DNA of 64,000 bases from Eledone cirrhosa (Eukaryota). Below the pieces are notes generated by a model, which saw only the letters and a program-made list of their open reading frames with translations, had not been told where the DNA came from and searched no databases. Position 1 is the stretch's first letter. Every line of letters starts with the position of its first letter. This document shows, one piece after another, positions 30,008 to 30,102 of this stretch. The DNA lies in NCBI GenBank assembly GCA_964016885.1, contig OZ024741.1:81406001-81470000 (forward strand), written 5' to 3'. The position numbers and the translations under genes are program-made.

Positions 30008-30102
30008 TGATCTCAGTAGACAGGTGGGGTAGTTGGCCTTGATAAGCTTCAACCAAAGCGAAACAAGTCTTGTCGGCTTATCTCCCCTGTTTGCTGAGAT
30101 CA
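30008..30102 (+). ncRNA. Type I hammerhead ribozyme, U3-A8 variant (copy 4)
   Basis: Outer stem I tgatctcagtagacagg/cctgtttgctgagatca (17 bp, two GU), inner stem I ggcc/ggct, core TTGATAA 30039-30045, stem II gctt-caacca-aagc, GAAA 30060-30063, stem III caag-t-cttg, GUC 30072-30074. Confidence 0.87.

What the first reader, a model, noticed from the sequence alone, without database searches (positions are those of the whole stretch)
30008..30102. Hammerhead core carries the compensatory U3-A8 pair (UUGAUAA) and a long interrupted stem I
Seen: all four copies have TTGATAA where CUGANGA is expected, with every other core and stem element in place. Stem I extends past an internal loop into a 17 bp helix, and stem III is a palindrome with a 1 nt loop (caag-t-cttg). 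Known: positions 3 and 8 form a Watson-Crick tertiary pair in the active fold, and U3-A8 is a tolerated but uncommon natural variant; palindromic stem III favours dimeric hammerheads. Inference: the double change reflects selection for catalysis and would hide the family from CUGANGA-based searches.
Basis: partly seen in the sequence, partly recalled or inferred. Interest (0 to 1): 0.8.

Follow-up and report, generated by a model that had tools for sequence, protein, structure and literature searches.

The report
Hammerhead ribozyme in a hitchhiking retroelement
This stretch has the shape of a self-cutting hammerhead RNA with a rare but already published swap of one core base pair, and it lies in a 316-base non-coding repeat with thousands of copies in this animal genome; the repeat likely spreads by borrowing the enzymes of Penelope-type jumping genes, and the RNA is predicted to cut itself in pairs, which is untested.

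Summary
Observation largely confirmed. 30008-30102 is a type I hammerhead with a U3-A8 core. All 4 window copies have TTGATAA, but only 2 of 4 keep the perfect caag-t-cttg stem III. It sits in a 316-nt non-coding unit, here an inverted-plus-tandem insertion in (TA)n. The genome holds about 4,400 U3-A8 pattern matches in a ladder of subfamilies. Stems I, II and III covary (94% of cells paired, 12 of 28 pairs changed on both sides). A homologous sister subfamily has canonical C3-G8, so the pair really covaries, but as one event of unresolved direction. Stem III keeps its dyad at pairs a monomer hairpin cannot form, supporting dimer cleavage. 30 of 40 insertions are inverted and 22 of those 30 carry a one-sided ~25-nt tail, the Penelope-like-element signature. 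Verdict: new non-LTR retrozyme family, likely PLE-mobilised. U3-A8 is known in nature (2011; ~1,300 Schistosoma PLE hits, 2014). Cleavage and expression are untested. The scan had no note on this family; it noted an unproven U3:A8 type III motif in another genome.

The parts
28896..30241 (.). Whole insertion: inverted arm on - (28896-29599, about 2.2 units) joined head-to-head to a tandem arm on + (29596-30241, 2 units), between TA-rich ends
   Evidence: (L024)
29923..30238 (+). One 316-nt non-coding repeat unit (34% GC; longest ATG ORF 28 aa when read as a circle)
30008..30102 (+). Type I hammerhead domain with extended stem I
30008..30024 (+). 5' strand of distal 17-bp helix (pairs with 30086-30102)
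   Evidence: helix 1: 93% of cells paired, 4 of 14 counted pairs changed on both sides
30026..30038 (+). 4-bp helix (with 30082-30085), internal loop 30030-30034 (opposite 30079-30081) and proximal stem I 30035-30038 (with 30075-30078)
   Evidence: pair 2.1-1.1 UA:22 CG:13 UG:1
30039..30045 (+). Core U3 U4 G5 A6 U7 A8 A9; U3 = 30039, A8 = 30044
   Evidence: sequence; 3-8 UA:29 CG:7
30046..30059 (+). Stem II (GCTT/AAGC) with 6-nt loop CAACCA
   Evidence: 3 of 4 pairs changed on both sides across subfamilies
30060..30063 (+). G12 A13 A14 A15.1
   Evidence: sequence
30063..30073 (+). Self-complementary stem III, dyad centre T30068
   Evidence: 30066 and 30070 covary in contigs of run X1
30074..30074 (+). 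C17; predicted cleavage on its 3' side (GUC)
   Evidence: hammerhead rules (established knowledge); not observed
29725..29731 (+). Core of second copy (stem III with one private mismatch)
29374..29380 (-). Core of third copy (stem III with one private mismatch)
29058..29064 (-). Core of fourth copy (hammerhead domain identical to the 30039 copy)
30215..30241 (+). PLE-type 'tail': present at this 3' end, absent from the 3' end of the inverted arm, which stops at unit position 291
30242..30331 (.). (TA)n tract at the insertion site

Best explanation
This is a type I hammerhead motif with a U3-A8 core inside a 316-nt non-coding repeat (a non-LTR retrozyme) that is predicted to self-cleave mainly as a double hammerhead and is likely copied into (TA)n sites by Penelope-like-element enzymes. 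Shown: the anatomy, about 4,400 genomic pattern matches, compensatory changes in stems I-III, a C3-G8 sister subfamily, and inverted insertions with a one-sided tail. Inferred steps: a tandem array is transcribed; neighbouring hammerheads swap stem III strands through the palindrome and cut after C17 (30074), releasing unit-length RNA; the long stem I holds the two ends together for ligation to a circle (by a host RtcB-type ligase, by analogy with PMC7229834); in the monomer the core is tied up in an alternative helix, so the circle is not recut; a PLE reverse transcriptase/GIY-YIG protein nicks TA-rich DNA and starts cDNA internally at two adjacent sites 140 and about 164 nt downstream of the cut site, giving tandem and inverted copies. 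U3-A8 keeps the Watson-Crick 3-8 tertiary pair and so is tolerated.
For: Covariation on 36 distinct copies: 94.3% of 997 cells paired, 12 of 28 pairs changed on both sides, against 36-45% paired and 2-5 such pairs for slid controls. Stem II runs GTAC/GTAC, GCAC/GTGC, GCAT/ATGC, GCTT/AAGC across subfamilies. 3-8: 1,946 of 1,954 U3-A8 in young subfamilies; about 73 of the 100 listed (116 total) non-U3 matches are a C3-G8 subfamily (hand count), homologous over the whole unit and one clade at 100/99 on non-hammerhead columns; its position 7 varies, as expected of N7. Dyad pair 15.5-16.5, which would close a 2-nt loop in a monomer, is paired in 31 of 31 rows with letters (AU:15 GC:13 GU:3). The double hammerhead is 6-18 kcal/mol more stable than two monomeric hammerheads in 9 of 9 tandem pairs. 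30 of 40 insertions inverted; 22 of those 30 have one tailed and one short 3' end, 1 tail-tail, 1 short-short; 50 of 63 tailed or short ends abut TA-rich flanks, matching PLE hallmarks (PMC8557442 section 6; PMC11167929). Units of one insertion share variants: 30 shared by all units, 22 of them on both arms. A young PLE family with RT and GIY-YIG, also ending at (TA)n, is abundant in the genome. U3-A8 was reported active in vitro and natural (PMC3088659, passage).
Against: No cleavage was measured. The 3-8 change is one event with unresolved direction; midpoint rooting places C3-G8 inside U3-A8. Copies were found by core-containing patterns, so core invariance (0 of 10 core columns vary between subfamilies) is partly circular; the pattern-free check (0 of 15 core places among 34 variable places of 316) is not significant (about 1.6 expected), and one search lists a G12>A change at about 1% depth and hides 19 rows. 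Even the double hammerhead is 0.7-31 kcal/mol above the free ensemble (tertiary contacts not modelled). The central dyad pair is G-A in the C3-G8 subfamily, and 15.4 variants break both the palindrome and the alternative helix. 2 of 4 window copies have a private stem III mismatch. No PLE with a homologous terminal repeat was found among 30 loci of the one family checked. In print, 1 of 9 Xenopus retrozyme dimers cleaved in vitro (bioRxiv 2026.07.22.740005) and a lizard PLE hammerhead cleaved only with protein and was dispensable for insertion (PMC11167929). 44 variants are only partly shared within arrays, so not every array is a clean single-template copy.
Confidence: 0.65

Rival explanations
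1. Same retrozyme, but the hammerhead cleaves co-transcriptionally as a monomer, using a 4-bp stem III and loop II-stem I tertiary contacts, like coral and mussel retrozymes; the palindrome is incidental.
For: Stem III has 4 bp even as a monomer, more than the 1-2 bp typical of dimer-dependent animal hammerheads (PMC4209133); loop II and the stem I internal loop hold invariant unpaired letters and align to the HH9 model; the C3-G8 subfamily has a G-A dyad centre and the highest predicted monomer activity (P 0.016-0.125); invertebrate retrozymes cleaved as monomers (PMC7229834).
Against: Pair 15.5-16.5 is kept through AU, GU and GC although it cannot form in a 12-nt monomer hairpin; predicted P(active monomer) is 5e-6 to 4e-3 for the 7 U3-A8 copies.
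Confidence: 0.15
2. The fold is kept because the PLE protein binds it or chaperones it; cleavage is protein-assisted, slow or dispensable, and multimeric uncleaved RNA is the template.
For: PMC11167929: no cleavage without protein, catalytic mutants insert normally, no RNA-seq ends at the cut site. Insertion 3' ends here lie 140-164 nt from the cut site, so cleavage does not define them. The active fold is disfavoured in all predictions.
Against: The 3-8 pair, needed for the active conformation, is kept through a double change, and GUC and the core are kept in all sampled subfamilies (with the ascertainment caveat).
Confidence: 0.15
3. A dead or neutral satellite: U3-A8 is a founder accident amplified by DNA-level processes, and the motif is no longer under constraint.
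For: Individual genomic copies decay without regard to structure (122 private changes in the 18 arrays compared; old arrays carry broken cores).
Against: Compensatory changes accumulate along the whole subfamily ladder up to the youngest (1.7% mean divergence); dispersed young insertions carry PLE tails and inversions.
Confidence: 0.05

Closest known systems
Animal non-LTR retrozymes (Cervera and de la Pena 2020, PMC7229834; Li et al. 2026, bioRxiv 2026.07.22.740005)
   Same: 150-450-nt non-coding tandem unit, GC under 50%, one type I hammerhead per unit, thousands of copies, co-occurring PLEs.
   Different: U3-A8 core; 4-6-bp self-complementary stem III; insertions show PLE inversion and tail, which neither main text mentions (term look-ups). 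Circular RNA not tested here.
U3-A8 minimal hammerheads of Schistosoma Cercyon PLEs (PMC4209133; about 1,300 hits)
   Same: Same core covariation, animal genome, PLE context, over a thousand copies.
   Different: Those are minimal motifs (7-8-bp stem II, extra base after A9, short stem I, no stem III), mostly single; this one has a 4-bp stem II, no extra base, long stem I and sits in a tandem non-coding unit.
Natural U3-A8 hammerheads of Perreault et al. 2011 (PMC3088659)
   Same: C3-G8 covaries to U3-A8 in several natural hammerheads; reported active in vitro in the work they cite.
   Different: A few scattered examples there; here a large family with a homologous C3-G8 sister subfamily.
Penelope-like elements (Neptune/Naiad/Poseidon; PMC8557442, PMC11167929)
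   Same: Partial tandems, inverted 5'-truncated copy, tail at one end, TA- or AT-rich targets, hammerhead.
   Different: No RT or GIY-YIG ORF; tail about 25 nt rather than 30-40; no homologous pLTR found.
Rfam Hammerhead_HH9 (RF02275)
   Same: Best Rfam match; core, stem II and loop II align.
   Different: 24.6 bits against gathering 52; not a member; HH9 is the amniote intronic family (recalled).

Membership tests
Type I hammerhead ribozyme | Core U4 G5 A6 A9, G12 A13 A14, A15.1-U16.1, H17 | tested here: met
   sequence 30039-30074; columns invariant or nearly so in A1
Type I hammerhead ribozyme | Watson-Crick pair between positions 3 and 8 | tested here: met
   UA:29 CG:7 of 36; one event on the tree
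Type I hammerhead ribozyme | Three stems around the core, stem I open-ended | tested here: met
   covariation in stems I, II, III
Type I hammerhead ribozyme | Loop II-stem I tertiary contact | tested here: inconclusive
   invariant unpaired U and A letters in both loops, HH9 alignment; contact itself not modelled
Type I hammerhead ribozyme | Self-cleavage after H17 | not testable with these tools
   needs an in vitro assay
Rfam HH9 (RF02275) | Score at or above gathering threshold 52 | tested here: not met
   24.6 and 24.8 bits
Non-LTR retrozyme | 150-450-nt tandem unit with a type I hammerhead in each unit | tested here: met
   316-nt period
Non-LTR retrozyme | Non-coding, GC under 50% | tested here: met
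   longest ATG ORF 28 aa, GC 34%
Non-LTR retrozyme | Dispersed multicopy insertions | tested here: met
   1,954 + 2,536 pattern matches, controls 0 and 87
Non-LTR retrozyme | No LTR, PBS or PPT | not tested
   no LTR-like frame seen in 40 insertions, but PBS/PPT were not searched
Non-LTR retrozyme | Expressed as linear and circular unit-length RNA | not testable with these tools
   needs raw RNA reads or a northern blot
PLE-type insertion | Inverted 5'-truncated copy | tested here: met
   30 of 40
PLE-type insertion | Tail at one end only | tested here: met
   22 of 30 inverted insertions; about 25 nt
PLE-type insertion | (TA)n target bias | tested here: met
   50 of 63 tailed or short 3' ends with TA-rich flank; the unit's own end is TA-rich, and no genome background was computed
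Autonomous PLE | RT plus GIY-YIG ORF | tested here: not met
Non-autonomous derivative of a given PLE | Homology to a PLE terminal repeat | tested here: inconclusive
   none among 30 loci of one PLE family; other PLE families not examined
PLE minimal hammerhead (PMC4209133) | 7-8-bp stem II, extra base between 9 and 10.1, no stem III | tested here: not met
   4-bp stem II, no extra base, 4-6-bp stem III

The most novel reading that the evidence does not exclude
A natural experiment in ribozyme evolution: one retrozyme lineage swapped the catalytic 3-8 pair and walked stems I-III through stepwise compensatory changes while keeping two exclusive folds (an active double hammerhead and an 'off' helix in which position 3 pairs with 15.4: CG, UG, UA), and its insertions carry the PLE tail and inversion signature, giving direct sequence evidence that PLE enzymes mobilise animal retrozymes from internal start sites.
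Probability: 0.35. Interest if true: 0.6.

Novelty: new member of a known kind. Interest (0 to 1): 0.38.

Why it matters
The U3-A8 core alone is not news. What is useful: (1) matched natural C3-G8 and U3-A8 subfamilies in one scaffold let the cost or benefit of the 3-8 swap be measured without engineered context; (2) the one-sided tail and inverted arms are direct footprints of PLE-type reverse transcription on a retrozyme, a link so far argued from co-occurrence and pLTR similarity; the fixed ends name the RNA sites to test with a purified PLE protein; (3) about 4,400 motif matches in this genome fall outside CUGANGA descriptors and Rfam thresholds, against 5,678 canonical matches, so retrozyme censuses can undercount substantially.

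Tried and rejected
Whole-window Rfam scan: the 150 rows shown were microsatellite-driven miRNA/snoRNA noise; the repeat finder was swamped by TA repeats. My first hammerhead regex missed the motif through non-greedy matching; fixed. Expression: no RNA holder listed; the four runs laid are contigs of unknown kind, so no ends or levels could be read; depth in runs X4-X6 is low and their 'goes back' joints fit tandem DNA as well as circles. A contig end in X5 (depth 2) shows a C3 core related to the C3-G8 subfamily; too thin to root the tree. A loop II-stem I pseudoknot (CAAC with GUUG), considered from the young sequence, was dropped: loop II and the internal loop vary independently in A1. The 469-nt C3-G8 family and other canonical families are not homologous to this unit. 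A PLE ORF abutting an old copy (L144) was tried as the partner; its 3' region shows no similarity to the unit, so it is probably a chance target. The 'off' helix is only partly specific: 92.9% paired, 4-8 of 256 random stems would pair as well, but 15.4 variants break it and the unrelated 469-nt family is also trapped (8.3 kcal/mol). Rfam did not detect the C3-G8 copy L175 at E up to 1. The first tree included three chimeric rows from inversion junctions; they were removed. Lunse et al. (PMC5785218) and Przybilski and Hammann (PMC1986816) are not held, and the supplement of PMC7229834 could not be read; any of these may already list this family or U3-A8 rates. Host taxon: I guessed a cephalopod from genome size and microsatellite load for literature searches only; unverified.

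Full report
1. Observation. The + strand at 30008-30102 reads as a type I hammerhead: proximal stem I 30035-30038 with 30075-30078, core TTGATAA at 30039-30045 (U3 = 30039, A8 = 30044), stem II GCTT/AAGC with loop CAACCA, GAAA at 30060-30063, self-complementary stem III 30063-30073, C17 at 30074. Distal to a 5x3 internal loop lie a 4-bp helix, a bulge and a 17-bp helix, 30008-30024 with 30086-30102; the region folds at z = -7.09, 0 of 200 shuffles as stable. All 4 window copies carry TTGATAA; 2 of 4 have the perfect stem III, the others one mismatch each. The heptamer alone is at chance level (22 against 25.9). Rfam's best match is HH9 at 24.6 bits, below its gathering score of 52.

2. Context. 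The four copies are one insertion, 28896-30241: about 2.2 units on the - strand joined to 2 units on the + strand, period 316 nt (314 for the + pair), ending in (TA)n. The unit is non-coding (longest ATG ORF 28 aa) and 34% GC. The genome G000 is 3.0 Gb.

3. Census of positions 3 and 8. Strict pattern with N at both: 606 matches, of which 3 G3-A8, 1 U3-G8, 0 C3-G8, so 602 U3-A8. Looser pattern: 1,954 matches (control 0), 6 C3-A8, 2 U3-G8, 0 C3-G8, so 1,946 U3-A8. A disjoint pattern found 2,536 more U3-A8 matches (control 87; a few are doubles or unrelated) in older subfamilies 77-86% identical to the window unit. Together about 4,400, a lower bound. A pattern for non-U3 cores gave 116 matches; by hand count about 73 of the 100 listed are a C3-G8 subfamily (CTGAGGA or CTGAAGA). 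It is homologous across the unit and forms one clade, 100/99, on a tree of 39 rows built without the hammerhead columns (chimeric and short rows left out). So 3-8 covaries within the lineage, once. Direction is unresolved: there is no outgroup, midpoint rooting nests C3-G8 among old U3-A8 copies, and some U3-A8 arrays are more decayed than the C3-G8 copies. The genome also holds unrelated canonical families: 5,678 matches against 113 control.

4. Structure under selection. Homology search in the fetched loci gave 203 distinct copies (deliberately enriched for non-U3 cores, so not a random sample); 158 fell in 7 clusters of 3 or more, 45 did not. On 38 hand-picked representatives (36 distinct), 94.3% of 997 cells pair and 12 of 28 pairs change on both sides, against 36-45% and 2-5 for slid controls (cells count sequences, not events, and 33 of 500 shuffles reached 12 pairs). 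Stem II goes GTAC/GTAC, GCAC/GTGC, GCAT/ATGC, GCTT/AAGC; pair 2.1-1.1 UA to CG; stem III from ACAGAGCTCTGT through G-U intermediates to ACAAGGCCTTGT, then loses a base in the youngest subfamily, that of the window (1.7% mean divergence). Contigs of run X1 show 30066 A>T and 30070 T>A at matching depth. Core invariance across subfamilies (0 of 10 columns against 18 of 33 other hammerhead columns) is partly circular because patterns required the core; the pattern-free check is in the right direction but not significant (0 of 15 core places among 34 variable of 316), and one search lists one G12>A change.

5. Monomer or dimer. Pair 15.5-16.5 would close a 2-nt loop in a monomer, yet pairs in 31 of 31 rows with letters; the centre pair holds in 27 of 36, failing in the C3-G8 subfamily. 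The double hammerhead beats two monomeric hammerheads by 6-18 kcal/mol in 9 of 9 tandem pairs but stays 0.7-31 kcal/mol above the free ensemble. In single units an alternative helix between core positions 2.3-5 and stem III dominates (P 0.43-0.98 in 9 of 9). It covaries at 3-15.4 and 2.1-15.5, but some subfamilies break it and an unrelated family is trapped as well. These are nearest-neighbour predictions without tertiary contacts.

6. Mobilisation. Of 40 insertions (one locus each), 30 have an inverted arm; of these 22 end with a tail (unit position 308 or more) on one side and a short end (285-301) on the other, 1 tail-tail, 1 short-short, 6 with a truncated end; 50 of 63 such ends abut TA-rich DNA. 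The ends are 140 and about 164 nt downstream of the predicted cut. Inverted copy, one-sided tail and (TA)n bias are PLE hallmarks (PMC8557442, sections 3 and 6 read), and the tail was shown to be the stretch between two internal RT start sites (PMC11167929, parts 1-2 of 4 read). Units of an insertion share variants across both arms (30 shared, 22 on both arms, 44 partly shared, 122 private, in 18 arrays), as expected from one template, a circle or a uniform multimer. The window's insertion has 21 private changes and none shared, so its stem III mismatches are most likely decay after insertion. A young PLE family with RT and GIY-YIG motifs is abundant (150 of 19,395 candidates scored, all 95% or more identical) and also ends at (TA)n, but shares no terminal sequence with the unit; the partner is unidentified.

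7. What is known. PMC3088659 (passages): C3-G8 covaries to U3-A8 in several natural hammerheads, already shown active in vitro. PMC4209133 (parts 1-2 of 4): about 1,300 U3-A8 minimal hammerheads in Schistosoma PLEs; palindromic stem III and dimer cleavage. PMC7229834 (parts 2-3 of 6, passages): animal retrozymes are expressed as circles, ligated by RtcB-type ligase; invertebrate ones cleave as monomers, axolotl ones as dimers. bioRxiv 2026.07.22.740005 (parts 1 and 3 of 5, passages): retrozymes derive from PLE pLTRs; 1 of 9 dimers cleaved. PMC6765202 (passages) reviews dimer cleavage. A whole-word search for U3-A8 spellings returned only PMC4209133; searches returned no paper on this family or on tails of retrozyme insertions, and 'tail' occurs 0 times in both retrozyme main texts. 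Two relevant papers and one supplement could not be read. Hammerhead numbering and the role of the 3-8 pair are established knowledge.

8. Verdict. A real, structurally constrained type I hammerhead motif in a new family of a known kind of element, with a known core variant. It works like a non-LTR retrozyme mobilised by PLE enzymes; membership is met on sequence features, while cleavage and circular RNA are untested. Interest 0.38, owed to the matched C3-G8/U3-A8 subfamilies and the PLE tail signature rather than to U3-A8 itself.

Noticed in passing
window 46385-46431, - strand (core begins 46421): A second, canonical minimal hammerhead (CTGATGA, extra A, GGAC/GTCC, GAAACGTT) downstream of a decayed PLE ORF with a Cys-rich linker and GIY-like motif at about 47300-48000 (-); related motifs in L126, L172, L228.
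   Followed up: partly
L067-L095 (e.g. G000:C1:14044535-14051131): A 469-nt tandem retrozyme-like family with canonical C3-G8 core and 2-bp stem III, also with inverted insertions and TA ends; not homologous to the 316-nt unit.
   Followed up: partly
L168-L170, L166, L167: Further canonical hammerhead families (stem II GTCCT/AGGAC and longer), often as inverted pairs about 0.7-0.9 kb apart, probably PLE ends.
   Followed up: no
L096-L125: A dispersed single-copy-type hammerhead family with 5-bp stem II, long loop and ACTC/GAGT stem III cleaving at GUA (most of 35 matches).
   Followed up: no
L203-L232: Very abundant young PLE family (19,395 candidates, open frames up to 1,273 aa) with a fixed 3' end, an optional ~45-nt extension and (TA)n targets; its 3' UTR has a hammerhead-like core and stem II but no clear stem I.
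   Followed up: partly
window 30330-31040, - strand: Decayed Tc1/mariner-like transposase fragment right beside the insertion (recognised by eye from raw translation; no family scan).
   Followed up: no
window 30143-30200 equivalent in runs X1, X4-X6: This segment of the unit has about ten times the contig depth of the hammerhead and is shared with a 340-nt contig that differs elsewhere, pointing to more abundant, more distant relatives that may share a PLE recognition site.
   Followed up: no
L147 (G000:C1:42765542-42765576): A U3-A8 core in a motif unrelated to the 316-nt unit, with U-rich stem I; chance or an independent U3-A8 hammerhead.
   Followed up: no
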